From a virus, in IMG/VR virus record IMGVR_UViG_3300045256_000188, positions 19,426 to 83,425 of that record: a DNA stretch of 64,000 bases, one strand, 5' to 3'. Below, one piece after another: positions 1 through 35,085 of this stretch. The position numbers and the translations under genes are program-made. The notes under the pieces were generated by a model. It worked only from the letters and a program-made list of their open reading frames with translations. It had not been told where the DNA came from and searched no databases. The number at the start of each line of letters is the position of its first letter. Position 1 is the first letter of the stretch.

Positions 1-258
1 CGACTGACGCTGGAGATGAGCATCGATCGCAGCACTCTTCGTCTCCAGGAAGACCTGGAGCCGGCGGGCCAGTTCCCGCTTGTGGGCTTCCGTTTCCTCA
101 ATGCAGACCTTCTTGGCCTGCTCCACCTTTGCGGTGTAATCCGCCTCATACTGCTCACGGATGGTGGTCTTGTACTGCTCCAGGGACTCGCCGATTGAAG
201 CGACGAGTTCCGCTTTGCAGCCCGCCTTGGTCAGCAGGTCCAAGATCTTCTGGCTCAT
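1..258 (-). CDS. Prohead scaffolding/core protein (T4 gp22-like), 5' part; runs off the window edge
   Basis: Manual translation: MSQKILDLLTKAGCKAELVASIGESLEQYKTTIREQYEADYTAKVEQAKKVCIEETEAHKRELARRLQVFLE. GGAGGAG RBS, coiled-coil and Glu-rich, and downstream of the protease as in T4 gene order. Confidence 0.6.
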   Translation of the reverse strand, partial: MSQKILDLLTKAGCKAELVASIGESLEQYKTTIREQYEADYTAKVEQAKKVCIEETEAHKRELARRLQVFLETKSAAIDAHLQRQS

Positions 259-833
259 GATCAAGACTCCTCCGCGAGCAGTTCGAGGTATATTTGCGTG
301 AGGTCAGTTAGTTTAGGATGTACTTCGCGAGTATCCCCGCCAGACACCCTTTACCATCCACGGAGGTCAACGCCTCATAATGGATTTTTGACGACAACCC
401 CCAATTTCTTCAGCACACCAGCCAGCCGACGATCGAACCACTCAGAATGCGGAGCCCACCACTTCTGGGCCTCCCGGGTGTTCGCCGATGATCTTGCAAG
501 CAGCTACACCTGATGCTTGGTAAGGAGAAGCAGGACGCGATGAAGAAGTTGGGCGGTGGGAAGCCGCATCCGATGCAGACGGCGATGGGTTAGTGAGTGG
601 TGTTCTCGTCGCCGTAGCACATCCGCCCTTGTGTGGTGTAGATGAACGCCACCGAACCCGGCTTCAGGAACAGAGAATCCGGGTTCTGGTAGTCCCGATG
701 GTGCCCCGCCAGTTCGTTTTCGTTCGGCTTCTCGGCATTTGACCCAGAAGACGATGGGATTTGTCAGTCAGGATTCGGAATTGCCCGGAGAGGACGTACC
801 CGGCTTTCCCGAATTTGGCGAAGAGAGCCCATA

Positions 834-2789
834 TTAGCTCCGACGAGATGGCAGCCGGACGGGAACAGTCACCTTCTTGCGGTCCAACCCGAAATAGCCG
901 TTGATCTCCTTGACGAGAAGGTCGTTGTAGACATCCTCGCTGAAGAGCTTCTTCTGCTGAACGATTGGCTTGATCCGCCGGTTAAGTCCTTCCTGAATGT
1001 TCAGGATGGCCCCATGCACCGACGGCTCCGCCACCACATCCCAGGTCACGAAAGTGTAACCCGGCATGACCCGGTAGACGTCCCGACCCTTGTGCTCCAT
1101 CACTTCCATGTCGCCCACGCCGCGGGACGAGATACCGACGCGAACCTTGTGCTCGAACAGACCACGAAGCATCGCCCCACATGGCAGCTTGTGGAGCACT
1201 TCGGCTTCGCCATACACCTTCTTCCCCTCCAACCACACCTTGGTCATCAGGTGGGACAGGCGGTCGAGGTGAATCTTGGCATCGGAGTTACCGGTCCAGA
1301 ATGAACAACCACCGGTTTCCATATAGAAATTGCCGTGGTCCACCGAAACGCAATAAATCCGACCGGTATGGTGGATCTTCTCGATGATAGTAAACCGCGG
1401 ATCTAGACAAACCGATCGCGTCCGCGACACATGAAGCTGATGAAGGGTCCGCTTGTCAACAGCCCGAATGGCTCGGCCGGCGAACATATAATCATTGCTC
1501 GGCTCAACCTTCGACAGCCGGCCGGCACCACCAACTTTGACCAAGCACTCATGCAGGTCCCGAATCAGTCGTTCGGACACGCTGGACACAGCCAGCCTGC
1601 TGTACACCCCTAAATCGAGTTTCTGGACCACAGCGGCGTCAGTCTTGACACTTAGCGAGCGGGAATGACGATCCTCGGCCCGTAGCATCCGACCGTCGCC
1701 AATCGCGAAAGAGTAGATCAGAGCTTCAAGACAATCATCCGACAACGACTTGATATCTTCGGGAATGAATTTATCGGCAACGCCACCTAGACGGCGTAGC
1801 CAATTCGCCAGCCGTGCATCGTTCGTGAGGAACCCGCGTTTGCAGGGGGTCCACTGCAGTTCATTTGACACCCCATCTAGAATTTCAGACACCAATTTGC
1901 GACCATGTGGCGTCTTTTGAGCAATACAAACCCCATTACGACCATTCAGATTGCCCTTGGATAGATAAAGACCCAACAACAGACAGAATTGCCTTGCGTC
2001 CATTACCAGAGGGTTGACGAGATGTGGCTTCTTGAGTTTAAAGGCGTAGGCAGCTTCTACACCAGGGATAGTGTACAAAGATGACTGTGCCACTTTCCTA
2101 CTAGCGGTCTTTGGGATGCGATAATGAGCGTAGCGTTTCCGGTTTAAGTATACGTCCTCGATGGTGGCGTAGATCTGGTGGCCGTGGCGGTCCTCCAGAA
2201 GCAGTCGATGTCCCGGCGTATACGAATCGCTGATGTTGGCGTTATGAATCCTATATGCAGGACCATCGTACGGCTCGTCGATTATCGCGTTGACCCGCGA
2301 TTCCACGAACGAACCGGCGACCCGCGACCAAATCCGGTCACCCACCCGAACTTCTCGGAACTCCTTCCATCCGGAGGTGGTCATCAAACGGAAGTTTGTA
2401 TCCAATCGGCAAGGGTGGTCAAATTCACCGGGGACAGCACGAGCCGCCACATCCTCCTGGATATTGCGGACCGCAGGGATCAGCACATCCTGAGTGCCGT
2501 AGAACCGGCCGTTGGCGTTCTCGACGTCACCGTTCTGGATCAGCCCGCTGATCTTCATGATCGGCTCTTCCCGGCCACCGACCCCCTCGCAGATGGACTG
2601 CTTGATGTCCATCACTTCGAATGGGAAAGTGTCCCGGATTAGCTGCATCCCAGCGGGAATGACGCCAGTCTCGGCGATCAACGCACGGTTGATCACACCC
2701 GACTGGAGCCGGGTGTTCTTGTCTTCGGAGAGAACGCCCTGGCGAACTAGGCCGGGGCTGATTCCCATTACGCGACGGCTAGGTAACAT
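834..2789 (-). CDS. Prohead protease (T4 gp21-like) with one intein; about 276 aa after splicing
   Basis: Motifs NANGRFY, GEFDHP, SHLMTKVW, GISSRGVG, TWDVVAEPS; AAGGAG RBS. Confidence 0.92.
   Translation of the reverse strand: MLPSRRVMGISPGLVRQGVLSEDKNTRLQSGVINRALIAETGVIPAGMQLIRDTFPFEVMDIKQSICEGVGGREEPIMKISGLIQNGDVENANGRFYGTQDVLIPAVRNIQEDVAARAVPGEFDHPCRLDTNFRLMTTSGWKEFREVRVGDRIWSRVAGSFVESRVNAIIDEPYDGPAYRIHNANISDSYTPGHRLLLEDRHGHQIYATIEDVYLNRKRYAHYRIPKTASRKVAQSSLYTIPGVEAAYAFKLKKPHLVNPLVMDARQFCLLLGLYLSKGNLNGRNGVCIAQKTPHGRKLVSEILDGVSNELQWTPCKRGFLTNDARLANWLRRLGGVADKFIPEDIKSLSDDCLEALIYSFAIGDGRMLRAEDRHSRSLSVKTDAAVVQKLDLGVYSRLAVSSVSERLIRDLHECLVKVGGAGRLSKVEPSNDYMFAGRAIRAVDKRTLHQLHVSRTRSVCLDPRFTIIEKIHHTGRIYCVSVDHGNFYMETGGCSFWTGNSDAKIHLDRLSHLMTKVWLEGKKVYGEAEVLHKLPCGAMLRGLFEHKVRVGISSRGVGDMEVMEHKGRDVYRVMPGYTFVTWDVVAEPSVHGAILNIQEGLNRRIKPIVQQKKLFSEDVYNDLLVKEINGYFGLDRKKVTVPVRLPSRRS
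1287..2411 (-). mobile_element. Intein in prohead protease (375 aa, LAGLIDADG type)
   Basis: GEFDHP|CRLDTNFRLMTTSGW ... TPGHR ... LLGLYLSKG ... IYCVSV ... FWTGN|S. Confidence 0.92.
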
Positions 2790-19680: not shown

Positions 19681-20060
19681 TTCAGCGGGAGCGTGCCTGG
19701 GGATTGGACGACGGTGGCCTACTGGCGGTGCTGGCTAACGACCTGCACTTGAAAGTATCCTACGGGGTGTTCCAGTCCAAGCAGTACGTCTTGAGCCGGC
19801 TAAACTTAGCCGGCAAGATACTCTACTGCTCCTGTCGTATCAGCACAGAAGGCACCGACGTGATGTTGACCGGTTCGAACGGTCAGGAAATGGTTGTCAA
19901 CATCGCCGACCCCAACAGCATCGAGAAGTTGGAGAAAGCCATCAAGGACGACAACTTCATGCTGGTTGCCGGTCCTAAGACCGAGCAAAAAATCATCGAG
20001 ATGGAGCGAGATGTGTTCGGCCTAGAAGATTTACTCTTCAAGATGAAGAGTACGATCTAG
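19677..20060 (+). CDS. Hypothetical protein
   Basis: ATGA-coupled to the previous ORF; 127 aa. Confidence 0.65.
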   Translation: MIQRERAWGLDDGGLLAVLANDLHLKVSYGVFQSKQYVLSRLNLAGKILYCSCRISTEGTDVMLTGSNGQEMVVNIADPNSIEKLEKAIKDDNFMLVAGPKTEQKIIEMERDVFGLEDLLFKMKSTI

Positions 20061-21049
20061 GACTCGTCCTCGTTGTCGTCCGCGCTACGTCGCCATCCGG
20101 CCCGCTGCCCATCAGCACCACGGTTCAGATTCGAGTCAGTCAGTTCCATACTCCGCAATTTCGTCAACTGGATGAAGTTGGTGACCGTAGCCCGGGATAG
20201 CCCGGTGCGGTCTACCAGCTTACCAATGATCCCATCGTGCGGCCGGTCGTCGTTCTCGGCAATCCAGGCGATTGCTTCGATGATCTGCAGGTGATCGTTG
20301 TGGTACTTCCACAATTCGCGGGCTTCGTTGAGGAACCTCTCCATCACCCCCGACACCGGCCGGCTCTTGGTCCCAAGGTGGTTAACGTAAGAGCCGGAGT
20401 TCTTGCGGTCCCGGCCCTCTTTCTTGATATAGGCCAAGATTACCGTTCGGGCGATCTGGCTCCACATGTTGAAGACTTTGGATATGCCGCGGAACAGTAC
20501 CGTCTCAGAACCACCATATCTGCCCTGCTTGGGCTCGACGCCCGGTGATGCATTCAGGAGGGCTTGGCAATGTGGGCAGCGACGGCCGCGGTGGAGACTG
20601 ATAACCTCCTCAATCGTCTTGATACCATACTCCTTGTCGCCCGGTTGGTAGAGCAGGGAGTCGGAGGGGCGTTCTGGGTTGAAGCAAACCCGACAGTGTG
20701 GGCGTGCTCGATACTTGTAGAGGGTCCGCTCGATTTGAACCCAGGCAGTCTGGAGAAGGTCACCGAAAGCGGACTCTTCTTGGCCTGGGTAGATGGTGTG
20801 GAGGCCCTGCTTGCGGATTATTTGGCGGATGAGTTCGGTGGCGTGACTCATGATCTGGTCACGCAGAACTACCTTCGTGCAACCCGTCCAAATGTATAGC
20901 GTTAGCTGCCATTCGACTTCTTCATTAATGAAATACAATTTACGTTGCGGCGTCACCACCGGTGGCGGGCACGGGGGGACTTGGCTGCTTGGAGGCTGGG
21001 ACAAGCAGCTTTCGTCGGATTTTGAATCTACTTTTAACGAGTTCTGCAC
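20057..21049 (-). CDS. Late-transcription sigma factor (T4 gp55-like) with a Cys-rich insertion
   Basis: KLYFINEE; DLLQTAWVQIERTLYKY; KVFNMWSQIARTVILAYIKKE resembles region-2 motifs; C-terminal HTH (TGLSRATVTNF). Confidence 0.6.
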   Translation of the reverse strand: MQNSLKVDSKSDESCLSQPPSSQVPPCPPPVVTPQRKLYFINEEVEWQLTLYIWTGCTKVVLRDQIMSHATELIRQIIRKQGLHTIYPGQEESAFGDLLQTAWVQIERTLYKYRARPHCRVCFNPERPSDSLLYQPGDKEYGIKTIEEVISLHRGRRCPHCQALLNASPGVEPKQGRYGGSETVLFRGISKVFNMWSQIARTVILAYIKKEGRDRKNSGSYVNHLGTKSRPVSGVMERFLNEARELWKYHNDHLQIIEAIAWIAENDDRPHDGIIGKLVDRTGLSRATVTNFIQLTKLRSMELTDSNLNRGADGQRAGWRRSADDNEDES

Positions 21050-24000
21050 CGTCCACGCTCCCGCCAGGAAATACGACCTTGGTAGGGTAGCCGGCTTGGA
21101 CTATCACCTTGAGCCGGGCCTTCGAGTGATCGTATAGGTACCGGTTGCAGCGGAAGAAGAAGTCGTAAATCTTGCTTTCGCCGCGACGGTTCCGCCGAAG
21201 GGCACGGCCGATCTTTTGAATGAACTCCGATTGGAGCTTACCCCCCGACGCGATTATCAGGTTCTCGCAACCTCCCTGCAGGTCAAGACCCCGGTTAATA
21301 ATCTTCCCGCCGATAAGTACATCCAGTTCCCGCCGTTCGAACGCACGCAATGCCTCATCACGTTTACGCTGCGGCGTCTTCCCGAAGATGAACTTCACCC
21401 TGAGTCCGGTCAGATTCACAGCCTCTTCCAACTTGAAACCCAACGCCTCCCGGTCCACCAGCACTAGTGTCCCATCCATCGGGTCCCGTTTACACCGCTT
21501 GCACAACTTCGCCACGATCGTGTGGAAGCGGACACTCTCAGTAATGTGCTCGTTGTAGGCGATGTCGTAAGCCGACGCCTCGTTGATATCCCCATCCAGC
21601 CCGCAGGCCAACATGTGGTATTCGCAAGGAATGATCCGGCCCAGCTTCGTCAGGTTCTCCCGCGTCTCCTGGAAAATCACACTGCCCAAGTGCTCCTGCA
21701 CCACCATCGCCTCGACCGGCTTGGCCGGATCGAACGGAGTACCAGAGTTGTGAACCAGCACACCATCAGCATAGAAGTTTGAGGCCGGATTGACGTCCAG
21801 AACGTCATACATTCTGACCTCTTTGCCGGTATCGACGACTTCAATCACCGACGTTTTAGCTTTTCGACAGAGATAAACGGGAACACCTTTCCATGAGGAC
21901 AAGCTGTGATCGTCAAAAGAGAACGGGATAAAAGCCGCATTGGGTATCACTACGTCATCACCGTTCGATGCGACGACTGTCCTGCAGTATACCAGTGCCC
22001 GGTGGACCGCCCAACCTATCAGATCCGGACTTTTGGTAGGCATCTGTGTCCGCAGTGCATCCAGAAATTGCCACACATCGTTGAGAGAAGAAGACGGGCT
22101 ATGGAGGCCACAAAAGAAAAGATGTTGCGAGATCACGGCGTGGAAAACTGGTTTTCCGTCGCAGAGCACCAGAAAACCGCGAAGTCCACTAGGCAACGGC
22201 TGTACGGCAGTGAGTCGTTCAACAATCAAAAACGGCGTAGGGAGACCTGCCTCGGCAGATACGGCGTTGACCACCCGATGAAACTGAAGGGCATGGTCCA
22301 GAGAGTCCAAAACACTATGATGGAGCGTTACGGCTGTCCCATCATCTTCCAAGCACCCGATAAGATCCAACGACGATTGAAGATATTCAAGCAGCGTTTC
22401 GGCGGCAACCCCGTCAACGACCCTTCCGTTCGACAGAAAATTAGCCGCACTCTCGCTGAAGGATACAGCAGTGGCAGACTCAAATTCCCGACCAAATTCA
22501 AGACCGGATACTACCTCGACCGGCATGGGCGGTTGTTGTATTACGCCTCGTCTTATGAACTCCTGTTTCTCCAGTTCCTCGACGGGCACGGCATTGCGTT
22601 CACCACGCAAGAACCCAGAATCGGCTATGAATTCGAGGGGAGACGCCAATACGTGATCGATTTCTGTACCGACGAGTGCTTGATCGAGGTAGGACCGCGT
22701 AAACTCAAGGCCCGGCCACGCAATGTGGCCAAGATCCACGCCGGGGTCGCTTTTGCCCAGAAAGTCGGTAAGCGATATAAGCTTCTCGACGAGACGATCA
22801 TCTTGAGTCTGGATAATTTGACCTGGGCTGATATCTTGAACTCTGATGTAGCGTCCCAGATCGTCAGCGATAAGGTGATCACCTGACGCCCCTAGCCGCG
22901 TACCGTCGCTGAATAAGACCTCCCATAACCTCTTAAAGCCGCTGTCAACAACTGTCCCGACCCCAAAAACATCCCTACCATTCGATCGGCACAGGACGTC
23001 AACCACCTGACCGTCGCCGAACGAACTCAACTTTCTACATCCATCTTTAGTGACCACAGACACATCGCCTGGCAAGCAGAACCCATACCGCCGCCGGCCT
23101 CTGAAATAGAAGCGGAACAGGTTCTTCCACGGATCGGACACAGCCTTGTCGCAATTATGAACTAACAAGCCGTTCGCTTCAAAACAAGCTGGACCGGGGA
23201 CAGTCAAATCAATCAAGCGTGCGGGATCAGCCAACTCGACGGTTTTAACTATTTCAACCGCATAATCACAGAGACTGGTGTCCACTCGTTTAGAAGCAAG
23301 GCGATTTTGCAAATTCCGCACATAACCACGCCATAGATCATCACCTCGCTGGCGACGATCCCACGCCGTCTTGCTGTCTATGCCAGCGAACGCCGCCACT
23401 TTGGCGTCACTAACACCGAATAAATTTTTGGCAGCAGCATAATTGGCCGGTACCACCGCGATCAAATTGTCAATTGATTTTTGCCATTTAACCAACCTTA
23501 TAAGACTAATTTTGTTACGATTGCCAGGAGACACACCGGTAGTGTTGGTCCCTAGGATTCTAGCCAGTTTGACTGGGGGCAGACCAGCTTCCCGCCAGTG
23601 AGCCAACCATGGTTGCGGATCAATTCGTCGTTCACTGTCCACAACCGAAGAGAGCACGGGTTTGCTCTGTTTTCGGCTGAAACCAAAACCAACCAGTCGA
23701 TGCCACTTCCTAAAATTTTCGCCAGATACGGCAACCCGCCACAGTTTAGCGTGTTGTGCACGATCACGCTTATTACTAATGAACACACTAGAGCCAATTC
23801 CTAAATAAGCCATGAGTTTCTGAGCGAAATTCATCAATGCCCAATCGATTGAGTCACAAGTCACGGAGCTTGGATAAGACGACCCTTTTGCATCAAATAA
23901 TCCACGCAATAAGCTAGCCGCAGCGTCGGTGCTGGGAACCACAAATCGTGGATCGATCGACCCCATCTTACGTCCGGGTTTGAACCCAAGCTGTTTCAAC

Positions 24001-25289
24001 CATGCTGTTAAGGCTGACGACTTGATTATAAACACAAAATCGCCACGGCGATTGAAACCAGATTTAAATGACCCAGACCAGGCGACAGCCATCGCCACAC
24101 CAACAGCATGCCAGTCGTCAACATCTTTCCGAACTGCGAAGCGTACTCGCTCATTATCCAAAAAATGGCCATCTCCGATAAACAGACCGAGGTGGTACCA
24201 AGAGTCTATGATTGTGGTGGTAGCAATCTCCGGGCGAGGGGCCAACAGCAAGTCGCCGGGGACGAGATCGCAAGCATGACGATAGTCGCATCGGCCATTA
24301 ACTAAAACAGCACATGGATGGTTGTGCGAAGTCCGCAAAATTATACCAGTCGTGGTTGTAACGTTGACAGTAGCTTCTACCTTTTCGGACCACCCACTAA
24401 TTCGATAATACTTATCATTGACGCGAGCCATTACAACTTGACCAGTCTGCAAACGTTCTACCACCACTGCGGCTCGTTCGAGACCTCCGTCGGTGACTAT
24501 TACAGTGTCTTCGTGAACGCACTCGTCCACAATAATCATTTCGGCCTTGCGGACGTACTCGATCAGCACCTTAGCATTCTTGCGACGGGTCTTGAACGCC
24601 TTGAACTTCTTATCCCACTGTTCCATCCGTTTCTGGAACGAGATATCGCCTTCCCCCATCTTCTGGGTAGGGACCTCCGGTGGCTTGGTAGGCAATGTAA
24701 GTGACTGGATAGAACCGATGACCACCATCTGGCCATTGGGCCGCTTCCCAGCGTAGAACATGCCGACTTCTTCGGCCACATCCCGCAGTTCCAGCCGCTC
24801 CTTGAGTTGCTTTACTACAATCACTTGGTCAGCGAGGATGATCGTCGGGCAAGGAATAGCCTTGCAAGTGCCGGCGATGAGTTCGCCCTTACCGCCGCCG
24901 GTTGGTATGTCGATAATACCGCACTCGACCCTGACGGTCTTTCGGATGCAGTCGATCTGGTACTGCTCCAGCTTGATGCCGGGCAGGAAATTCTCGTCGA
25001 TGGTATCAGGATCGACTGTTTGGTAATTCCAAGCTGGGCGAAGATCGCGAACTGAGAGGGGTAGGTTGTGCTTGTTGCAAACACCACGGAGCATCGACAG
25101 GAATGGGCGGGCCATTCGCCGCCGGCCGCGATTGTACTTGCGGAACACCCCATCCCAATTCGCCATCTGGGTTGGGTCAACATAACGGCCCGGTCGACTA
25201 ACACTGAACTCTTCCCAAAGGATGTTCTCCTCGGCGTCCGTGATGTTGTCGAAGTAAATCCACTGGTTGTCGTTGAGTATGGCGATCAC
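20940..25289 (-). CDS. uvsW: SF2 DNA helicase (UvsW-like) with two inteins; about 549 aa after splicing
   Basis: PTGGGKG, IIVDE|CD, GF|SGTP, RGLDL, QKIGRALR, IYDF. Confidence 0.9.
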   Translation of the reverse strand: MIAILNDNQWIYFDNITDAEENILWEEFSVSRPGRYVDPTQMANWDGVFRKYNRGRRRMARPFLSMLRGVCNKHNLPLSVRDLRPAWNYQTVDPDTIDENFLPGIKLEQYQIDCIRKTVRVECGIIDIPTGGGKGELIAGTCKAIPCPTIILADQVIVVKQLKERLELRDVAEEVGMFYAGKRPNGQMVVIGSIQSLTLPTKPPEVPTQKMGEGDISFQKRMEQWDKKFKAFKTRRKNAKVLIEYVRKAEMIIVDECVHEDTVIVTDGGLERAAVVVERLQTGQVVMARVNDKYYRISGWSEKVEATVNVTTTTGIILRTSHNHPCAVLVNGRCDYRHACDLVPGDLLLAPRPEIATTTIIDSWYHLGLFIGDGHFLDNERVRFAVRKDVDDWHAVGVAMAVAWSGSFKSGFNRRGDFVFIIKSSALTAWLKQLGFKPGRKMGSIDPRFVVPSTDAAASLLRGLFDAKGSSYPSSVTCDSIDWALMNFAQKLMAYLGIGSSVFISNKRDRAQHAKLWRVAVSGENFRKWHRLVGFGFSRKQSKPVLSSVVDSERRIDPQPWLAHWREAGLPPVKLARILGTNTTGVSPGNRNKISLIRLVKWQKSIDNLIAVVPANYAAAKNLFGVSDAKVAAFAGIDSKTAWDRRQRGDDLWRGYVRNLQNRLASKRVDTSLCDYAVEIVKTVELADPARLIDLTVPGPACFEANGLLVHNCDKAVSDPWKNLFRFYFRGRRRYGFCLPGDVSVVTKDGCRKLSSFGDGQVVDVLCRSNGRDVFGVGTVVDSGFKRLWEVLFSDGTRLGASGDHLIADDLGRYIRVQDISPGQIIQTQDDRLVEKLISLTDFLGKSDPGVDLGHIAWPGLEFTRSYLDQALVGTEIDHVLASPLEFIADSGFLRGERNAVPVEELEKQEFIRRGVIQQPPMPVEVVSGLEFGREFESATAVSFSESAANFLSNGRVVDGVAAETLLEYLQSSLDLIGCLEDDGTAVTLHHSVLDSLDHALQFHRVVNAVSAEAGLPTPFLIVERLTAVQPLPSGLRGFLVLCDGKPVFHAVISQHLFFCGLHSPSSSLNDVWQFLDALRTQMPTKSPDLIGWAVHRALVYCRTVVASNGDDVVIPNAAFIPFSFDDHSLSSWKGVPVYLCRKAKTSVIEVVDTGKEVRMYDVLDVNPASNFYADGVLVHNSGTPFDPAKPVEAMVVQEHLGSVIFQETRENLTKLGRIIPCEYHMLACGLDGDINEASAYDIAYNEHITESVRFHTIVAKLCKRCKRDPMDGTLVLVDREALGFKLEEAVNLTGLRVKFIFGKTPQRKRDEALRAFERRELDVLIGGKIINRGLDLQGGCENLIIASGGKLQSEFIQKIGRALRRNRRGESKIYDFFFRCNRYLYDHSKARLKVIVQAGYPTKVVFPGGSVDGAELVKSRFKIRRKLLVPASKQPSPPVPATGGDAAT
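21747..23078 (-). mobile_element. Helicase intein 2 (444 aa): splicing domains flanking an antisense-derived insert
   Basis: YGF|CLPGDVSVVTKDG ... ASGDH ... MYDVLDV ... DGVLVHN|SGTP; the middle has no endonuclease motifs in this frame. Confidence 0.9.
21906..22886 (+). CDS. Homing-endonuclease-like protein (zinc ribbon, RYGV-type repeats, PD-(D/E)XK/TnsA-N-like domain), antisense within helicase intein 2
   Basis: CDDC/CPQC; TCLGRYGVDHPM and TMMERYGC repeats; SVRQKIS; YYASSYEL ... YVIDF ... LIEVGP; GAGGA RBS before GTG. Confidence 0.85.
   Translation: MIVKRERDKSRIGYHYVITVRCDDCPAVYQCPVDRPTYQIRTFGRHLCPQCIQKLPHIVERRRRAMEATKEKMLRDHGVENWFSVAEHQKTAKSTRQRLYGSESFNNQKRRRETCLGRYGVDHPMKLKGMVQRVQNTMMERYGCPIIFQAPDKIQRRLKIFKQRFGGNPVNDPSVRQKISRTLAEGYSSGRLKFPTKFKTGYYLDRHGRLLYYASSYELLFLQFLDGHGIAFTTQEPRIGYEFEGRRQYVIDFCTDECLIEVGPRKLKARPRNVAKIHAGVAFAQKVGKRYKLLDETIILSLDNLTWADILNSDVASQIVSDKVIT
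23154..24521 (-). mobile_element. Helicase intein 1 (456 aa, LAGLIDADG) inside the DExD box
   Basis: VDE|CVHEDTVIVTDGG ... LGLFIGDG ... LIDLTV ... LLVHN|C. Confidence 0.92.
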
Positions 25290-25510: not shown

Positions 25511-28500
25511 CTACGTGGGCATGGCGCACTTGTCGTTGTCGCAGAACTGCGAACCCACCGCCTCGTACAGATACTCCGAGTAATCGGCGTTACCGAGCTT
25601 GGAGTTGTACTCCTCAACTTCCGCGGCCTCACACGGAATGTATGGGGCCTGGGCGTAGCCATGGTCTACGTGCGGCAGGAAACTGATGCCCTTGAGTTGG
25701 TCCTCAAAAGCTTCCAGCACGCGGGCAATGTCCGCGGCCTCGTGCGGCTTAAACTTCACGGTACACGACACTTGGTTATCGGCCCAATACCGCTGGTAAT
25801 CCACGGCGTTCTGCATCTGTTCCCAGATGCTAACTTCGCCGACTGGCCGGACGCCCGATTCGCCCTTGACGCCGAAGTAGACCACCACGGTCCGGTCCGG
25901 GTCAGACAGCACCGGCTCGACCTTGAAACCCGCCTCGCGGAGGATCTTGACCAGGACCGAGTCCTTGGCGACCCGCACCAACCGCCAGTAGGTGCCGGCT
26001 TCGGGATGGTGGATGCCGGGGGAGACGCCCACGACCAGACTGACGGTGTTATGGCTTTTCACCGCCCCCGCATAGTACCAGTGACTATTATCGACCTCGA
26101 CATCATATGTGCGTTGCCGTTCGCCTTGGGTTACAGCCACCACTTTGCCAAATAATCTGTTCTTCTTGCCAACTTGGTGTGTCCATGGTAAATCGGCAAC
26201 GGCGTCTTCCACACACTTATTGCAGTGTTTAGCGAACAACGCGAAGCGGTCGTCCACGGTGTGTTTCATCCCAGACAAGGACCACATTCTTCGCACGCCT
26301 TGATGATTGCGTCCCTTAGCGTTAAGCGACCTACTGAAAACAAGACCAACGGCCAACGCCACATCCTGAACGTGCCGAGCAAATAAATCCCCAGACATTG
26401 AAATGATTGGATACTGATCAGACGCCCGCCGACCAATGCAGCCATCGGAATCACACAGCCCAGCCAGGAAGGCCAAGATGTCTTCGTAGCTTGAACTGCG
26501 TATGCATTTCGGGATCAAATCAGCATTGCTCTTGATTTTCAGACAGTCGTTAATCAAGAGCCAGTGCCACAGCAACTTGGAACCAACTTCGAGAACGAAA
26601 GCATCACGACCTTGGGAAGCCCGTGTGATTTTCGTCTCGACTCCGAATTGCTCCAGAATAACCCTTTGGGCTTTGTGTAAATTAGACAGATTTTGATCGG
26701 TGTACCGCATCCTGAATTTCAGGAACGATTGTGAACCGTCGCCCCACATGTATCCGAGCAACCACGCTAGATCCGGGTTCATGTGCGTTGGTTGCTCAAT
26801 GGCTGCGACCGGACCACGCATCGACACGTGCCTAGATGATAGTTTGCAGAGGGCAGCATGGTTGCGACACGAATAAATACCAGGAGTCAGTTGCACGATG
26901 TCGCCAGGCAACAGTTCGTCGGCACGTTTCCAGTCGTTGACCTGGCTTAATTTCCGCTTCTTACCTCGGTCGTATCGTGACACTACGAACCATTGATGGT
27001 TTGGAGTCGACTCAAGCATGAAATTGTAGTTGAGTTTGACCTTCACGACATCAGATAAGCCGTTGTCATAGGTCTTGGTGATGCGATCACCGATTGCCGT
27101 GGCAACTCCAGCCATCATCGACCGACTAGAATCGATTCCATCTCCCTGAACAGCGATCACTTCTTTGGTCATATCACACCACCGTTCCCCATCCTGATGG
27201 CCAGACATCTCGAACAGCTCTTCGAGGGTCAGCAGACCGGCGGATGTTGTCGTCAGTGCATGCCAGGGCCGACAGCCGCTAGGCTTGACCGACGTGACCT
27301 TGATCGACTTCGGAACGCACATCCATTCCGAGTAGATCTGGTCCCAACGGCGGATCTCATTGTAGCCGGCATCGCAGAAGTCCTTGAGGACCGTGCGACG
27401 ACCAAACTTGGCGAACGCTTCCACGATCCCCGACTGGCTCAGGCCGATCCGCCGGTTGCGGAGGGTGACCTGATTCGTCCGGCGATTGTGGGTTGGCAGC
27501 AGGGTGACGGTCTTGGCGTACAGGTAGGCGAACTTGAGGGTCCGCATGTAGTCGTTGGCATCATCGTGGTTCGATGGGAACGTCTCCACGAGATTACATT
27601 GGTAAGTGATGACGTTCCCGAATACACCCATGTGGTTGTCCGGCTCATCAAAGCAATAAGTAGTATGCAGACCAGGAAGTTTCTCGACGGCAACCACATA
27701 CTGCTTTTGGGCGACATCGATTCCGCGATTCGAGTATCGTGGATTCGGCTTAATCCGGCTACCGATCTTAGTTGCTCGCTTCACCCTGGTTGGGATTTCT
27801 CCGCACTCGAAGCTCGGAATCTGAATGTACCAGAGGTCGTTCTGTCGCACCCCCTTGTTCGTCACTTGCCCAGCCGGGTGATAAAAATTGACGGAGGCGT
27901 GGTTGATCCCAGCCCTGCGTAGGAGTAGTTGGGCATCACGAATCTTGGCTTCCAAACCGTAGATCCGATAGCTGTGAGTATTAGCCTGCTTACACACGCA
28001 ACCGTCCGACTCGATCCAACCGGCGATGAACTCCAAGATGCTCTCACGATCGAAAGCCATCACCCACGCCGGTAAGCCGGCGTTCTTGTCGCGAAGTTCT
28101 CTGAGCTGATCGGAAGTCATACAGTCTCGAAGATTGATGCGATTATACGGGTCGCCGTAACCATCCTTATTCTGTGGTTTGTACCAACGACCTCCCATGT
28201 CCAGCGTCTTGAGTTTGGCCTTTTGGCCACAGGCGACGGCCATGGGGCGGGTATAGCGTGGCCGATTCACGAGATCACCATCGCCAGTAGCATAGCCCAT
28301 TTCAAAAGCGTTAGAGACTTTGTTACCAGCGACCCGGCCCAGAGAGAAACCCAGCACGCGGTCTCCAGGCTGTAATTGTAGGGTTCCAACACGTCGATAG
28401 ACCCGTTTTCCAACAGGCCGCACCGACCATCCGTGATTGCCGGTAGCATCCAGATAAGAACCGTCGGAGAAGTGAACTCGATATAGTTCGCGGTCGCTCC

Positions 28501-31500
28501 CAGTGACGCGGGGCGTGACTTTCGACCAACTATCGCCGTTCCAGACTTCGACAATCTTACCAACCACGGCGTCGATCCGGCGGATGCCATCCCGGAGCTG
28601 TAATTTAGTGTCACCACTGACACACAGCTCGTACGACTCCAGGGACTGCTCCATGCATTGACCAATTATTATCCCATTGACAACAACTTTATTATGCCCC
28701 GGTTCGGTAAGACAGAAAGTCTCCTCCTCACCGACACGCTCAACAGACATGACCATCGCAAACAGTTTCGGTAAAGAGTTGCGGCTACCATGGTGGTCGG
28801 CCAACCAAGATGTAGCCTTTTCGGTTTTCGAAGCCTGTATAAAACCGATCTGATTCATGAACAGCTGAACGTTAGTACGACCGGAGATTATTAGTTCGTG
28901 GCCACCATTTCCATCGTTCATAAGTCTGGTGGTAACCGCTTGTCTTCGCAGGACGCTAGAATTGATCCCAAACTGCCTAAGCAACAGTTGACATTCATTC
29001 AAGAATGACTTCGATTTCTGGCCGGCCCTGATAGAGATTGATAGTTTGTAGTTGCTAATCTGTACACCACCGTCCGCACTAAAGAAGCCCCTAAGGAAAG
29101 CTGCCACTGTTTCGCGAGTGCCACCCCAAATAGATGTAGGGACCCTGTGCTTGTCGCCTGGAACAACACCGTCACTATTAAGCAATCGACCCAGGACATT
29201 GGACCTGATCGATTTCTGCCGATGGCTGAAATGCTCCTGACGGCGTTCACTGCCATCGAAATCGGGAGACTGATCACTGGATTGATTGTGCCGATGATAG
29301 ACATCCAATAGATTACGGCGCAACACCGGTAAGACCTCTTCGATATCGTCCTGATGACAGGCCACAAACGCCGTCACCTGACCATCACGCTGTTGTGACA
29401 GTGAGCCATCTCCGATCACCCAGCCAGCCAATTCAGCATAGTGCGGATCGCTGAATTGCCCGAATGCTGGCACGAAATGAAGTGGCAAACGGTGACCCGG
29501 AACCAATTCACATAGCCGTACCCTGTGCTCAACCATATCATCATCCAAGACTACGAAGACATGATCAGCGGTGGCGTCGATATACTGACCATTACTAAGC
29601 ATCACGCGGAATATTTCAGCACGTTCGCTAGTTCGATAAACATTGGTAGCAGTAACCACACCAGCATGGTTTACTACTCTGAGTGTGCCATGCTTGTCAA
29701 CGGATGGTTGACCGCTATACTCCTGAAACCCACCACTTACCCACAGTTCGCGCATCGTGCGATATCCGTTCTCGGTCAACAACCTCATGGCTCCCGCAAA
29801 ACAAGGGTTCGCCCCCATCACGCGGCCATCCACACCGGGCTTGAGGCCGTCCACCATCCGCCCGTAGTCGCGGACGTTGTTGAGCCAGATGATACCCGGC
29901 TCGCCGTTGACGCCGATCTGCTGACCGACAGGACGGTAATCCATGCCGAGCTTGGCGAAGATCGAGTTGTTGGATGCCCAGCGGTGGTGGTTAAGGGCGT
30001 TCCAGGTCTGGATTGCCGGCAGCAACCGCTCATCCGGGATGTCCTTACCGGCGAAGTCGTCCTTGGTGGCCGAGTTCCGCTTGGCGGCGTAAATCTTGCC
30101 CGTAACTTCGAACCACGCATCCATGTCCTGCGGCAGCAGGGTCTTGGTCGGGTTCTTCATCGAGCAGTACGCTTCGTCGTCGGCGTCACCGAAGGCGATT
30201 TCGGCGGTGTTATGCACCAAACGCCCCTCCGCCACGAACTCGCTGCGGTCCGGCACGGACAGATCGTAGGTCTCGACGGTCACTCCCTCGTCCACGACTG
30301 AGGTCACCGCCACCGGAATCAGACCCTTTGTCTTCAGGCCCAGCGTAGTAGCACTTGAATAGGTCATCTGTTCCTGTTGCGGCGTCCAGGTTCGGCCGTA
30401 GTCAGCATACATCACACTCTTGCTGACCATCTCCGTCGGGTAGCCGAAATCGTGGCCGCTGGCCCGTCCCATCTCGCGAAGCTGCTTGACCGCATGGGGC
30501 TGGACATGCTGGCGGAAACCGGCGATGGCATACTCGCCCAGCAACGAGATCTCCCATTTGGCCTGGCCAGCAGCGTCGGCCTTCTTACGGAGCCGCAATT
30601 TGGTCGGGATACCAAGGCTTGAGTATACGGCCTGCACCTGCCGTAGGAAGTCACGATATACGCTAGTCACCAGGGTGGTTGGACGGTTCTTGGTGGAACC
30701 GTCGCTGTCCAGCAGCCCGGCGAGGTAGGCAGATCTGATCTCCGGGATCCCCATGCGGATACAGGCCGGTACGTCAAGGGGCTTACGGGCCTGCTTAACG
30801 TGAGTGTACAAATAGTGGGCCAGTCGCTTGGAAATGACACGGATCTTGCGACAATTATCTTGGCTGCGTTGCTCGCCGGGGGCGTCGAAACCGAAGGCCG
30901 CAAATCCGGCGTTCACTTTGGCGGTGATACCATCATGGTATTCGTCTCGATTTACGGGGATCGTCACCGAGGCTCCATGGTACTTGCGGCCCTTGTGGGC
31001 ACGCCCAGGATACACGTAGCCGCCGCCATGTACGGCCCCCAGGAACCACGCCACGTCCGTGGTCAGACCGGGGACGATCAGGGTTGACCCGCGGCCGGAT
31101 AGGTCACTGTAGCCGGGCAGGACGGTATCGGTACCGGGGATGACGGCATCCACGAACACCATTCGGTCACCGGCCCGGAGTTCGTGGGCACGCTTCCACT
31201 CGTATTGGTCCAGGCCGCTCATCACGGCGATCCGGTGCCTGTCGGTGCAGCGGAACGGCCCCATCAGACTGTTGATGGTCACCACCCGCTGAACCCCCTG
31301 GGCCACGTTTTCGGCGACCGGGTAATAGCCGTCGGCGGTGAGGACTAAATCACCGACCTGTACCTGTTCGATCGGGACCAACCCGCGTTTGAGGTGAACC
31401 AGGGTGCCCTTGGGCAAGCACCGACGGACATTCCCAGCAACCACGCAACGACCAATGTAGTTCATCAAGTCGGTGATGTCCACCGAATCGAGGGTCTGGC

Positions 31501-34432: not shown

Positions 34433-35085
34433 GGTTCTCTCCAGTCTTGCTCGAAGATGTCGCGGGCTTGGTTGAGGTTTCCCTGATCCTTCAGGAATTC
34501 CTGCCACAGGATGTACAATTCGGTCTGCCTGGGTAACAATCCCCGTTCGTCTGGGTAGTCGCGGTTGAGTCGAGCCAGAACTTTGGAGCAGGACCGCGAC
34601 AGTGCGAGATAGAGCGGTGTGATACGGGACGCCTGGAACCACATAGTCAGGTTACAAAACCCGTCAGGGTCTGCCCGACTTGATAGCACTTCCACGGCGT
34701 TGCCATCGCCAATTTTCTTGCTGAGCCAGGACTTGATGTGCCGGAGGGAATCGGTCGTTCGCGTGTTGTTGTTGGACTCTTCTTGCAGTTCCTCGTAGCA
34801 CAGATCCAGCATGTTGTGCTGGTGCAGTACTGCGAGTCCCTTGTTCAGCAGTCCCTTCTCTTTCGCGAGCCGCACGGCGATGTCGATGAACTTCTTCGCC
34901 GCTTCATCCGGTAGTTCCCACTCCTCAAACTTTTTAGCGATGGCCGTCGCATACCGCCACTGGTAAGTCTTGGACGGGTCCGTACCGGCCGGGAGGCTCA
35001 GCCTACGGCCTTGCCGTAGATAGGCTTCTGAGCACCAGGACCAGACGTCGAGCACCCGGTTGTCGTCCACTTGCGACCTCTTCAT
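34414..35085 (-). CDS. Hypothetical protein
   Basis: Start refined to MKRSQVDD; the 3' end overlaps the nrdJ start. Confidence 0.65.
   Translation of the reverse strand: MKRSQVDDNRVLDVWSWCSEAYLRQGRRLSLPAGTDPSKTYQWRYATAIAKKFEEWELPDEAAKKFIDIAVRLAKEKGLLNKGLAVLHQHNMLDLCYEELQEESNNNTRTTDSLRHIKSWLSKKIGDGNAVEVLSSRADPDGFCNLTMWFQASRITPLYLALSRSCSKVLARLNRDYPDERGLLPRQTELYILWQEFLKDQGNLNQARDIFEQDWREPCLLSS

What the first reader, a model, noticed from the sequence alone, without database searches (positions are those of the whole stretch)
21747..23078. Intein whose endonuclease is a separate gene on the opposite strand
Seen: the second helicase intein has normal splicing blocks (CLPGD..., ASGDH, MYDV, VHN|S). 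About 300 codons in its middle read as motif-less shadow protein. The opposite strand (21906-22886) encodes a coherent 326-aa protein with its own GAGGA RBS, zinc ribbons, RYGV-type repeats and a PD-(D/E)XK/TnsA-N-like domain. The two frames are codon-aligned, so the plus-strand gene must avoid TTA, CTA and TCA throughout, and its 3' end overlaps intein block B. Established: intein homing endonucleases are normally in-frame parts of the intein polypeptide. Inference: a free-standing endonuclease invaded a mini-intein in reverse and is tolerated because the antisense peptide is spliced out. This would be a two-strand composite selfish element with independently expressed nuclease. The expected ExK reads EVG, so the nuclease may be inactive.
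Basis: partly seen in the sequence, partly recalled or inferred. Interest (0 to 1): 0.92.

Follow-up and report, generated by a model that had tools for sequence, protein, structure and literature searches.

The report
Helicase intein with antisense endonuclease gene
A self-splicing protein insert (intein) in a phage helicase gene carries its likely mobility nuclease as a separate, conserved gene on the opposite DNA strand, a rare layout that is real here but has already been described for other inteins.

Summary
The minus-strand helicase ORF (20940..25289) holds a second intein at 21747..23078 with class-1 splicing residues. A 326-codon plus-strand ORF (21906..22886) lies codon-for-codon antisense to its middle. 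That ORF is a real gene: it scores 74 bits against Pfam DUF7487 (cut-off 27), has 6435 homologues at E<=0.001, and has a zinc ribbon, helical repeats and a C-terminal PD-(D/E)XK nuclease fold. The intein-frame reading of the same codons matches nothing. Two further virus contigs (L013, L024) and one protein record (P0153) share the layout. Selection switches frame exactly at the overlap: pN/pS is 0.29-0.32 in the nuclease frame against 0.78-1.04 in the intein frame. Outside the overlap the pattern reverses. All three nuclease genes lack TTA, CTA and TCA, so the helicase frame stays open (P about 0.01, 2e-5 and 9e-6). The canonical catalytic Lys is Gly in 3 of 3 copies.

Antisense homing-endonuclease inteins are in print (Gorbalenya 1998 and Gogarten 2002, as cited in Gosselin et al. 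2025, which reports antisense Vsr-like cases). This scan's own notes list such cases on other DNA. This is a new member of a known kind. Expression, splicing and cleavage are untested.

The parts
20940..25289 (-). Host gene: superfamily-2 helicase precursor (1449 aa) holding two inteins
   Evidence: ORF. Pfam ResIII 28.5 bits, Helicase_C 40.3 bits and Intein_splicing 36.8 bits. Intein-less relatives are about 530-560 aa.
23154..24521 (-). Intein 1 (aa 257-712) at VDE|CDK, with an ordinary in-frame LAGLIDADG domain; shown for contrast
   Evidence: Motif positions. Pfam LAGLIDADG_3 at aa 457-534, 27.9 bits. Also present in L024, absent in L013 and P0153.
21747..23078 (-). Intein 2 (444 aa) inserted at GRRRYGF|SGTP
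   Evidence: C1, S65-x-D67-H68, H443-N444 and +1 Ser are invariant in 4 of 4 members. The same site is uninterrupted in 18 related loci from 17 contigs.
22794..23078 (-). N-terminal splicing lobe of intein 2 (aa 1 to about 95; blocks A and B plus the following strands)
   Evidence: For aa 1-64, pN/pS in the intein frame is 0.53-0.65 against 0.82-1.06 in the antisense frame. AlphaFold pLDDT is 71-87 for aa 1-63.
22794..22886 (.). Zone constrained on both strands: intein aa 65-95 (block B and the next strands) against the last 30 or so codons and the stop of the nuclease gene
   Evidence: In the 15-codon window aa 75-89, mean pairwise identity is 0.56 in the intein frame and 0.67 in the nuclease frame.
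21960..22793 (-). Intein-frame 'shadow' linker (aa about 96-373): translated as part of the precursor, with no sign of its own fold or selection
   Evidence: No family or PDB-sequence match. pN/pS is 0.78-1.04 over the overlap. pLDDT is below 50 (only 4 sequences in the alignment).
21747..21905 (-). C-terminal splicing lobe of intein 2 (aa 392-444; MYDV, VLVHN), not overlapped by the nuclease ORF
   Evidence: pN/pS in the intein frame is 0.42-0.46 against 0.79-1.01 in the antisense frame. M423, D425, V426, H443 and N444 are invariant.
21895..21899 (+). Shine-Dalgarno-like GAGGA, six bases before the GTG start of the nuclease gene
   Evidence: L024 has GAGGA six bases before its ATG. L013 has GGTGAG eight bases before its ATG.
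21906..22886 (+). Antisense gene: 326-aa DUF7487-family putative homing endonuclease
   Evidence: Pfam DUF7487 at 74.2 bits against a cut-off of 27. The L013 and L024 copies score 69.8 and 60.0 bits. 6435 homologues at E<=0.001. pN/pS 0.29-0.32. AlphaFold mean pLDDT 75.
21951..22070 (+). N-terminal zinc ribbon of the nuclease (C22-x2-C25 ... C48-x2-C51)
   Evidence: C22, C25, C48 and C51 are invariant in the two-sequence alignment of the window and L013 copies, and are also Cys in L024. Modelled strands at aa 2-7, 16-21 and 28-31.
22092..22475 (+). Helical 'K-x-T-x4-YG(V)' repeats (aa 63-190), the part shared with most homologues; likely DNA-binding (inference)
   Evidence: The Pfam DUF7487 best stretch is aa 63-157. 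Nearly all the best stretches fall in aa 60-190. Helices at aa 56-188.
22497..22835 (+). C-terminal PD-(D/E)XK nuclease fold (aa 198-310): E218, D252 and E261 present, Gly263 where the Lys should be
   Evidence: A profile of alignment A2 hits T7 endonuclease I (1m0d) at E=4.8e-6. VIA-align gives TnsA 1t0f Z 9.9 (rmsd 2.6, 113 aligned), Vsr 1cw0 Z 8.6 and I-Bth0305I 3r3p Z 7.5. E-x-G-P-R-K in 3 of 3 embedded copies against E-x-K in 7 of 7 aligned free-standing homologues.

Best explanation
Window 21747..23078 is a two-strand composite selfish element in a phage helicase gene.

Minus strand: a contiguous class-1 intein is translated as part of the helicase precursor and splices itself out at RYGF|SGTP.

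Plus strand: where inteins usually carry an in-frame endonuclease domain, there is a complete separate gene with its own start codon and ribosome-binding site. It encodes a zinc ribbon, DUF7487 helical repeats and a TnsA/Vsr/T7-endonuclease-I-like nuclease domain, the make-up of a free-standing phage homing endonuclease.

The two readings share the same triplets. Selection acts on the nuclease protein. Its Leu and Ser codons are also kept away from TTA, CTA and TCA, so the helicase frame can be read through a roughly 280-residue meaningless linker that leaves with the intein.

Shown: the anatomy, the homology, the frame-specific selection, the stop avoidance, recurrence in four lineages, and many intein-less alleles.

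Inferred: that the nuclease is expressed, that it cuts or nicks the empty YGF|SGTP allele to drive homing, that the intein splices in cis, and that the element arose by reverse insertion of a free-standing endonuclease gene into a mini-intein.
For: Anatomy.

The plus ORF is a real gene:
- DUF7487 at 74.2 bits against a cut-off of 27.
- PHROG 'homing endonuclease' and 'endonuclease' families, E 4e-7 and 6e-5.
- tblastn hits to phage genes annotated as putative homing endonucleases, such as F-LimIII.
- 6435 homologues at E<=0.001.
- Nuclease fold; relatives P0074 and P0033 pass Pfam Tn7_TnsA-like_N.

Recurrence: L013, L024 and P0153.

Selection:
- 60-62% amino-acid identity in the nuclease frame against 35-42% in the intein frame over the same 326 codons.
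- Differences by nuclease codon position are 114, 73 and 191.
- pN/pS switches frame at the ORF borders, and the sliding profile shows the same.

Stop avoidance.

Splicing residues are invariant in 4 of 4 members.

Empty alleles: 17 intein-less against 4 intein-bearing rows in the C-extein tree. At least 2 gains or losses are forced by well-supported branches, and L024 sits with intein-less L022 and L018 at support 100/98.

RBS-like motif before the start in 3 of 3 copies.

No inversion or skipped form appears in contigs of four public runs. Short contigs of two of them cross both intein borders and the ORF start, but those runs are of the sample that may be the source.
Against: - No expression data. 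No RNA run was listed, and no sigma-70-like promoter was found for the plus ORF. The phage's own promoter type is unknown.
- The Lys of the E-x-K motif is Gly in 3 of 3 embedded copies. The PDB chain 2pfj_A of T7 endonuclease I carries Ala at that place (alignment). That Lys is essential in T7 endonuclease I is recalled knowledge, not from a call.
- The Pfam Intein_splicing score of intein 2 alone is below the gathering score: 21.6 and 22.8 bits against 35.8, and no hit for L024.
- AlphaFold gave pLDDT below 50 for the C-terminal splicing lobe as well, so the fold gives no support for that lobe.
- The three nuclease copies are about equally distant from each other (60-62%) and about as diverged as the exteins (48-61%). 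Recent homing is therefore not shown.
- The patchy distribution could come from losses.
- A few low-depth variant calls include a Cys48-to-Tyr change in the zinc ribbon. This may be an error.
Confidence: 0.8

Rival explanations
1. The nuclease gene is a retained but catalytically dead relic, or has been put to another use such as DNA binding, nicking through a relocated Lys or Arg, or antisense control of helicase expression. The element would then no longer home by double-strand cleavage.
For: E-x-K reads E-x-G in 3 of 3 embedded copies, while 7 of 7 aligned free-standing homologues keep the Lys. The three copies are old and about equidistant, with synonymous sites saturated (pS about 0.8). 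No near-identical intein was found in diverged exteins.
Against: pN/pS of 0.29-0.32 over 326 codons in three lineages shows that the protein is used. E218, D252 and E261 are kept. A conserved P-R-K follows the Gly and could supply the charge. The intein's distribution is patchy among close relatives.
Confidence: 0.15
2. The plus-strand ORF is a chance 'shadow' of a real, novel in-frame intein domain.
For: Codon-aligned antisense frames are the frames most often left open by chance. 224 of 9775 background windows of 326 codons in this window had no TTA, CTA or TCA.
Against: The plus ORF passes a curated Pfam cut-off and has thousands of homologues, while the minus reading has none. Selection lies in the plus frame. 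The fold is confident in the plus frame only.
Confidence: 0.02
3. The helicase is made as two pieces from a split intein, a 'fractured gene' with the endonuclease gene reversed, and is joined by trans-splicing, so read-through of the middle is not needed.
For: [quoted passage not shown]
Against: The intein frame is open in 4 of 4 members. The avoidance of TTA, CTA and TCA would be pointless if read-through were not needed. No stop ends the N-half in any copy.
Confidence: 0.02
4. Assembly artefact: an inverted segment inside the intein.
For: None was found. All the data are metagenome assemblies.
Against: The same layout is found on three contigs from different IMG/VR records with 60% diverged sequence. 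A 47-kb Logan contig spans the stretch, though it is possibly from the source sample. Short contigs of two other runs of that sample cross the borders, with no joints.
Confidence: 0.01

Closest known systems
Inteins with an antisense Vsr-like homing endonuclease in actinobacteriophages (Gosselin, Arsenault, Gogarten, bioRxiv 10.1101/2025.01.02.630785; abstract and sections 8, 15 and 28 read)
   Same: Both are contiguous inteins with intact splicing parts and a separate endonuclease ORF on the antisense strand in the endonuclease slot. In both, the in-frame reading gives no recognisable structure. Both nucleases have a long helical stretch plus a PD-(D/E)XK core matching Vsr 1CW0: Z 10.6 in the preprint, Z 8.6 here. 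Both also match I-Bth0305I (3R3P).
   Different: The host gene here is a superfamily-2 helicase. [quoted passage not shown] The virus here is a large uncultured phage from contigs of runs labelled hot-spring or microbial-mat metagenomes, not an actinobacteriophage. tblastn of this nuclease found no actinobacteriophage record at E<=0.001, or at E<=1 for the nuclease domain. Homology to their nucleases is therefore not shown. Their phage names are in supplements that I could not see.
Antisense LAGLIDADG inteins (Synechocystis DnaX, Chloroflexus SpoVR-like; Gorbalenya 1998 and Gogarten et al. 2002, known to me only as cited in the preprint above; PMC147447 is not held)
   Same: An endonuclease gene lies on the opposite strand inside a functional-looking intein.
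   Different: The nuclease family differs: LAGLIDADG there, DUF7487 plus PD-(D/E)XK here. Those cases are in cellular genomes.
'Fractured genes': split inteins with a free-standing GIY-YIG or Vsr-like endonuclease gene between the halves (Dassa et al. 2009, PMC2677866; abstract and passages read)
   Same: A free-standing-type endonuclease gene with its own expression signals sits in the endonuclease slot of an intein in phage replication genes, helicases included (gp41).
   Different: [quoted passage not shown] Here the host frame stays open across a reversed endonuclease gene.
ShiLan insertion: a hidden out-of-frame HNH endonuclease in a phage methylase (PMC11855218; abstract and section 22 read)
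   Same: An endonuclease is hidden in another reading frame of an insertion that stays open in the host frame. Gene callers miss it.
   Different: There the endonuclease is on the same strand in the +3 frame, belongs to the HNH family, has no splicing domain and has no RBS.
Free-standing DUF7487 proteins of phages, such as the putative homing endonuclease F-LimIII of Dickeya phage LIMEstone1 (annotation seen)
   Same: The same repeat module, and in some the same C-terminal TnsA-like nuclease.
   Different: Only 24-33% identical. They stand alone between genes, and they keep the E-x-K lysine (7 of 7 in alignment A2).

Membership tests
Class-1 intein (HINT splicing domain) | N-terminal Cys or Ser nucleophile at position 1 | tested here: met
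   C1 is invariant in 4 of 4 members.
Class-1 intein (HINT splicing domain) | Block B T/S-x-x-H | tested here: met
   SGDH, SPDH, SADH and SGDH. S65, D67 and H68 are invariant.
Class-1 intein (HINT splicing domain) | C-terminal His-Asn followed by a Ser/Thr/Cys +1 residue | tested here: met
   VLVHN|S in 4 of 4 members.
Class-1 intein (HINT splicing domain) | Curated profile score (Pfam PF14890 gathering score 35.8) | tested here: not met
   Intein 2 alone scores 21.6 bits (window) and 22.8 bits (L013), with no hit for L024. The whole helicase reaches 36.8 bits, mainly through intein 1. The long insert splits the profile match.
Class-1 intein (HINT splicing domain) | Protein splicing activity | not testable with these tools
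   Inferred from the conserved residues, the open frame and the helicase's conserved motif at the site.
Intein with antisense-encoded homing endonuclease (as described in bioRxiv 10.1101/2025.01.02.630785) | A complete endonuclease-family ORF on the strand opposite the intein, between the splicing lobes | tested here: met
Intein with antisense-encoded homing endonuclease (as described in bioRxiv 10.1101/2025.01.02.630785) | Host reading frame uninterrupted across the antisense gene | tested here: met
   0 stops in 3 of 3 DNA copies, and P0153 is also contiguous.
Pfam DUF7487 (PF24308) | Score at or above the gathering score of 27 bits | tested here: met
   74.2, 69.8 and 60.0 bits for the three copies.
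PD-(D/E)XK nucleases of the T7 endonuclease I / TnsA-N / Vsr type | Restriction-endonuclease-like fold | tested here: met
   TnsA Z 9.9 (rmsd 2.6, 113 aligned) and Vsr Z 8.6. The profile hits T7 endonuclease I at E=4.8e-6. The model's mean pLDDT is 75.
PD-(D/E)XK nucleases of the T7 endonuclease I / TnsA-N / Vsr type | Acidic residues of the motif: E ... D ... E | tested here: met
   E218 (SSYE), D252 (xDF) and E261 are conserved in 3 of 3 copies. They align with the E, PDF and E-x-K of T7 endonuclease I.
PD-(D/E)XK nucleases of the T7 endonuclease I / TnsA-N / Vsr type | Lys of the (D/E)-x-K motif | tested here: not met
   Gly263 in 3 of 3 copies (E-x-G-P-R-K). Lys is present in 7 of 7 aligned free-standing homologues.
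PD-(D/E)XK nucleases of the T7 endonuclease I / TnsA-N / Vsr type | Curated Pfam score for Tn7_TnsA-like_N (26.5) or Phage_endo_I (29.1) | tested here: not met
   The window copy has no hit. L013 scores 17.2 and 13.5 bits. Relatives P0074 (34.1) and P0033 (30.8) pass Tn7_TnsA-like_N.
EDxHD homing endonucleases (I-Bth0305I) | Fold match and the EDxHD motif | tested here: inconclusive
   3r3p gives Z 7.5 (rmsd 4.0, 92 aligned) and Foldseek probability 1.00 at E 0.016. The motif itself was not examined.
Homing endonuclease (function) | Site-specific cleavage of the element-free allele, leading to copying of the element | not testable with these tools
   There is only indirect support: the gene's position in the endonuclease slot, 17 empty alleles against 4 filled ones, and at least 2 gains or losses on the extein tree.

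The most novel reading that the evidence does not exclude
The antisense layout is not a short-lived accident on the way to a split or mini-intein. It is an evolutionarily stable partnership. Three lineages have diverged to saturation at synonymous sites, yet each keeps the nuclease under purifying selection, keeps about 30 codons constrained on both strands, and keeps purging TTA, CTA and TCA. This clade has also replaced the canonical catalytic Lys (E-x-G-P-R-K). It may therefore use a rearranged active site or act as a nickase or binder. DUF7487, a family with thousands of members and no known function, would then be a large and mostly unannotated class of homing endonucleases, partly hidden from gene callers inside other genes.
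Probability: 0.35. Interest if true: 0.55.

Novelty: new member of a known kind. Interest (0 to 1): 0.38.

Why it matters
The finding gives a clean, quantified example of antisense dual coding in a phage. The frame under selection switches exactly at the borders of the embedded gene, and the host frame is kept open by codon choice alone.

It extends the known antisense-endonuclease intein layout to a new host gene, a superfamily-2 helicase at its conserved SGTP motif. It also extends it to a large uncultured phage lineage outside the actinobacteriophages.

It links Pfam DUF7487 to a homing-endonuclease role.

Standard gene calling hides such genes. A search of 1.84 billion representative proteins returned no relative above 40% identity among its best 150 hits, although two 60%-identical copies lie in public virus contigs.

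It is not a new kind of element.

Tried and rejected
Searches that found nothing more:
- megablast of the helicase locus against GenBank phages gave no match.
- The nuclease was sought in the window's own 83-kb record. Only the copy itself was found, with no free-standing paralogue.
- The word-index protein search gave one distant hit only.
- The search for related loci with the intein protein gave none.
- The alignment of the two nuclease copies then known, searched in metagenome and virus contigs, re-found only the L013 contig.
- Two back-translated motif scans of virus contigs found only L024 and the L013 contig.
- The genome-contig scan with P0153 gave none.
- The search for homologous proteins with alignment A3 and 'longer' searched 1732-4945 aa because the alignment is 995 columns long, so it missed the wanted 800-1500-aa range. 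It found nothing, and this is uninformative.

Structure and promoter:
- The AlphaFold model of the intein frame has pLDDT below 50 from residue 64 on, including the true C-terminal splicing lobe. With only 4 sequences in the alignment, it cannot by itself show that the middle is unfolded.
- Foldseek on the whole nuclease model gave no hit at E<=0.001. VIA-align was used instead.
- The promoter scan found no sigma-70-like site for the plus ORF. This is uninformative for a phage with unknown promoters.

Sequencing runs:
- No RNA holder was listed.
- Contigs of runs X5, X7 and X9 left parts of the stretch uncovered. This means nothing either way.
- Low-depth variant letters were mapped to both frames. 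Within the overlap, 3 of 5 are synonymous in the nuclease frame and 1 of 5 in the helicase frame. This is too few and too error-prone to use.

Other leads dropped:
- A tblastn hit of the nuclease domain under nrdB of Acinetobacter phage Ac42 (E 0.1) lies on the nrdB strand inside the gene and was dropped as chance.
- Literature searches for 'intein' with opposite strand, antisense, complementary strand or opposite orientation, and for DUF7487, did not surface the architecture. One search led, through PMC11855218, to the 2025 preprint that describes it.
- Gorbalenya 1998 (PMC147447) is not held.
- Supplementary tables of the preprint, which name the phages with antisense Vsr-like endonucleases, could not be seen. 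A direct comparison with those nucleases was therefore not made.

Tree:
- Only the contiguous C-extein was used, giving 21 rows.
- Left out were L001 and L002 (not helicase loci) and L015, L016, L017 and L025 (the same contigs as L013 or L004).
- Most deep forks are unsupported.
Full report
**What is there**

The window is part of an 83-kb IMG/VR virus record that CheckV rates about 23% complete, so it comes from a large phage. A 1449-aa minus-strand ORF (20940..25289) is a superfamily-2 helicase, with Pfam ResIII and Helicase_C hits. It is interrupted by two inteins.
- Intein 1 (aa 257-712, at VDE|CDK) has an ordinary in-frame LAGLIDADG domain.
- Intein 2 is the finding. It is 444 aa at window 23078..21747, starts CLPGD, has SGDH as block B, MYDV in block F, and ends VLVHN followed by SGTP.

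A plus-strand ORF lies wholly inside intein 2 at 21906..22886. It has 326 codons and a GTG start, with GAGGA six bases upstream. It uses exactly the same triplets as the intein frame.

**Which frame is the gene**

The plus ORF is the gene.
- It scores 74.2 bits against Pfam DUF7487, whose cut-off is 27.
- It matches PHROG families labelled homing endonuclease and endonuclease.
- It hits phage genes annotated as putative homing endonucleases, such as F-LimIII of Dickeya phage LIMEstone1.
- It has 6435 homologues at E<=0.001 among 1.84 billion representative proteins, mostly through residues 60-190.
- Its AlphaFold model has mean pLDDT 75 (12-sequence alignment). It shows an N-terminal beta zinc ribbon (C22, C25, C48, C51), a run of helices, and a C-terminal alpha/beta domain.

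The C-terminal domain has a PD-(D/E)XK nuclease fold.
- A profile of the family hits T7 endonuclease I at E=4.8e-6.
- VIA-align gives TnsA Z 9.9, Vsr Z 8.6 and I-Bth0305I Z 7.5.
- The relatives P0074 and P0033 pass Pfam Tn7_TnsA-like_N.

The intein-frame reading of the same codons has no Pfam, PHROG, NCBIfam or PDB-sequence match. It also folds with pLDDT below 50. That model had only four sequences and also failed on the true C-terminal splicing lobe, so it is weak evidence.

**Recurrence**

Searching with the helicase C-extein gave 12 related virus loci. Eleven are uninterrupted at GRRRYGF|SGTP. One, L013, has a 443-aa intein at the same site with a 327-codon antisense ORF. A motif scan found a third DNA copy, L024, with a 437-aa intein and a 322-codon antisense ORF. 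L024 also carries intein 1. A protein search found a fourth member, P0153 (989 aa, intein 2 only), whose DNA I could not obtain.

In all, 18 related loci from 17 contigs have the empty site. C1, S65, D67, H68, H443 and N444 are invariant in 4 of 4 members.

**Selection**

Over the 326 shared codons, the nuclease frame is 60-62% identical between copies and the intein frame 35-42%. Between the window and L013, the differences fall 114, 73 and 191 on nuclease codon positions 1, 2 and 3.

Nei-Gojobori pN/pS by segment:

| Segment | Intein frame | Antisense (nuclease) frame |
|---|---|---|
| Intein aa 1-64 | 0.53-0.65 | 0.82-1.06 |
| Overlap with the nuclease ORF | 0.78-1.04 | 0.29-0.32 |
| Last 50 or so residues | 0.42-0.46 | 0.79-1.01 |

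So the frame under selection switches at the borders of the embedded gene. A sliding profile shows one zone, intein aa 75-89, where both frames are conserved (0.56 and 0.67). There, block-B-proximal strands and the nuclease C-terminus share codons.

**The host frame is kept open by selection**

In 3 of 3 loci, only the nuclease frame and its codon-aligned antisense frame are stop-free. The other four frames hold 8-41 stops.

This requires the nuclease gene to have no TTA, CTA or TCA. Given each contig's own codon usage, the chance of that is:
- 0.006-0.012 for the window (56% G+C);
- 2e-5 to 9e-5 for L013;
- 9e-6 to 6e-5 for L024 (both about 43% G+C).

Here synonymous sites in the nuclease frame are saturated (pS about 0.8). 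The continued absence of the three codons in three lineages therefore argues for ongoing purging. I did not measure the baseline in free-standing relatives, because no DNA was at hand for them.

An open frame that is actively kept argues for cis-splicing of a full-length precursor and against a split-intein arrangement.

**Is it mobile**

On a C-extein tree of 21 rows, the four intein-bearing helicases are scattered. Well-supported branches force at least two gains or losses. L024 groups at support 100/98 with the intein-less L022 (82% identical) and L018. The window's nearest rows are the intein-less L003 and the intein-bearing P0153, both 78% identical. Most deep forks are unsupported.

The three nuclease copies are about equidistant (60-62%), although L013's extein is much more distant (48-51%). 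This hints that the element's history is uncoupled from the host gene's, but it does not prove it. No near-identical intein in diverged exteins was found, so recent homing is not shown.

**The active-site oddity**

E218, D252 and E261 align with the catalytic E, D and E of T7 endonuclease I. Where the Lys of E-x-K should be, all three embedded copies have Gly, followed by a conserved P-R-K. By contrast, 7 of 7 aligned free-standing homologues keep E-x-K. The codon constraint does not explain this, because the Lys codons have stop-free antisense triplets. With pN/pS near 0.3 the protein is clearly used. Whether it cuts, nicks or only binds DNA is open.

**Assembly check**

A 47-kb Logan contig spans the whole stretch, though it is possibly from the source sample. 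Short contigs of two further runs of that sample cross both intein borders and the ORF start. No joints, indels or inversions were reported. No RNA run was listed.

**Comparison with what is known**

The architecture is in print. Gosselin, Arsenault and Gogarten (bioRxiv 10.1101/2025.01.02.630785; abstract and sections 8, 15 and 28 read) report the following.
- Actinobacteriophage inteins with LAGLIDADG or Vsr-like endonucleases encoded on the antisense strand.
- Their Vsr-like endonuclease has a long helical stretch plus a core matching 1CW0 and 3R3P.
- The in-frame reading gives no recognisable structure.
- They propose an origin by invasion of an intein by a free-standing endonuclease gene.
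- They attribute the first antisense LAGLIDADG inteins (Synechocystis DnaX, Chloroflexus SpoVR-like) to Gorbalenya 1998 and Gogarten et al. 2002.

Related arrangements are the fractured genes of Dassa et al. 2009 (PMC2677866) and the out-of-frame HNH of the ShiLan insertion (PMC11855218). This scan's own notes also list antisense-endonuclease inteins on other DNA.

New here:
- the host gene and insertion site (a superfamily-2 helicase at the SGTP motif);
- the phage lineage (a large uncultured phage);
- the DUF7487 identity of the nuclease;
- the Lys-to-Gly change;
- the explicit frame-switch and stop-avoidance figures.

The preprint expected antisense ORFs to decay quickly once homing stops. 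The three saturated yet conserved copies here point to long persistence.

**Verdict**

This is a new member of a known kind and of moderate interest.

Noticed in passing
window 25511..34642 (minus); inserts A 33955..32927 and B 32926..31877: The 3043-aa ribonucleotide-reductase-like ORF appears to hold six intein-like inserts. Two of them abut with no extein residue between them (..LTGN|CLPAEE..) and are 52.5% identical over 335 residues, as if one intein had been duplicated in tandem.
   Followed up: partly
window about 28669 and about 27610 (minus): Two of the reductase inserts end in Gln rather than Asn (..IIGQ|C and ..ITYQ|C). This unusual C-terminal residue was read from the translation only.
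   Followed up: no
window 23154..24521 (minus); L024 about 200..1600: Helicase intein 1 (in-frame LAGLIDADG, at VDE|CDK) is present in the window and L024 but absent in L013 and P0153. The two helicase inteins are therefore distributed independently.
   Followed up: partly
L024 5968..7335 (+): The neighbouring ORF in L024 (sequence CFAGDQMVW ... VVHN|SG) seems to carry yet another intein with a LAGLIDADG-like middle. These phages are intein-rich.
   Followed up: no
window 21906..22886 (+): Gene callers do not report the embedded nuclease ORF. A search of 1.84 billion representative proteins returned no relative above 40% identity among its best 150 hits, although two 60%-identical copies lie in public virus contigs.
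   Followed up: yes
window 20057..21049 (minus); L024 3666..4673 (+): A conserved 330-aa ORF follows the helicase and overlaps its 3' end by about 100 bases in both the window and L024. Its function was not examined.
   Followed up: no
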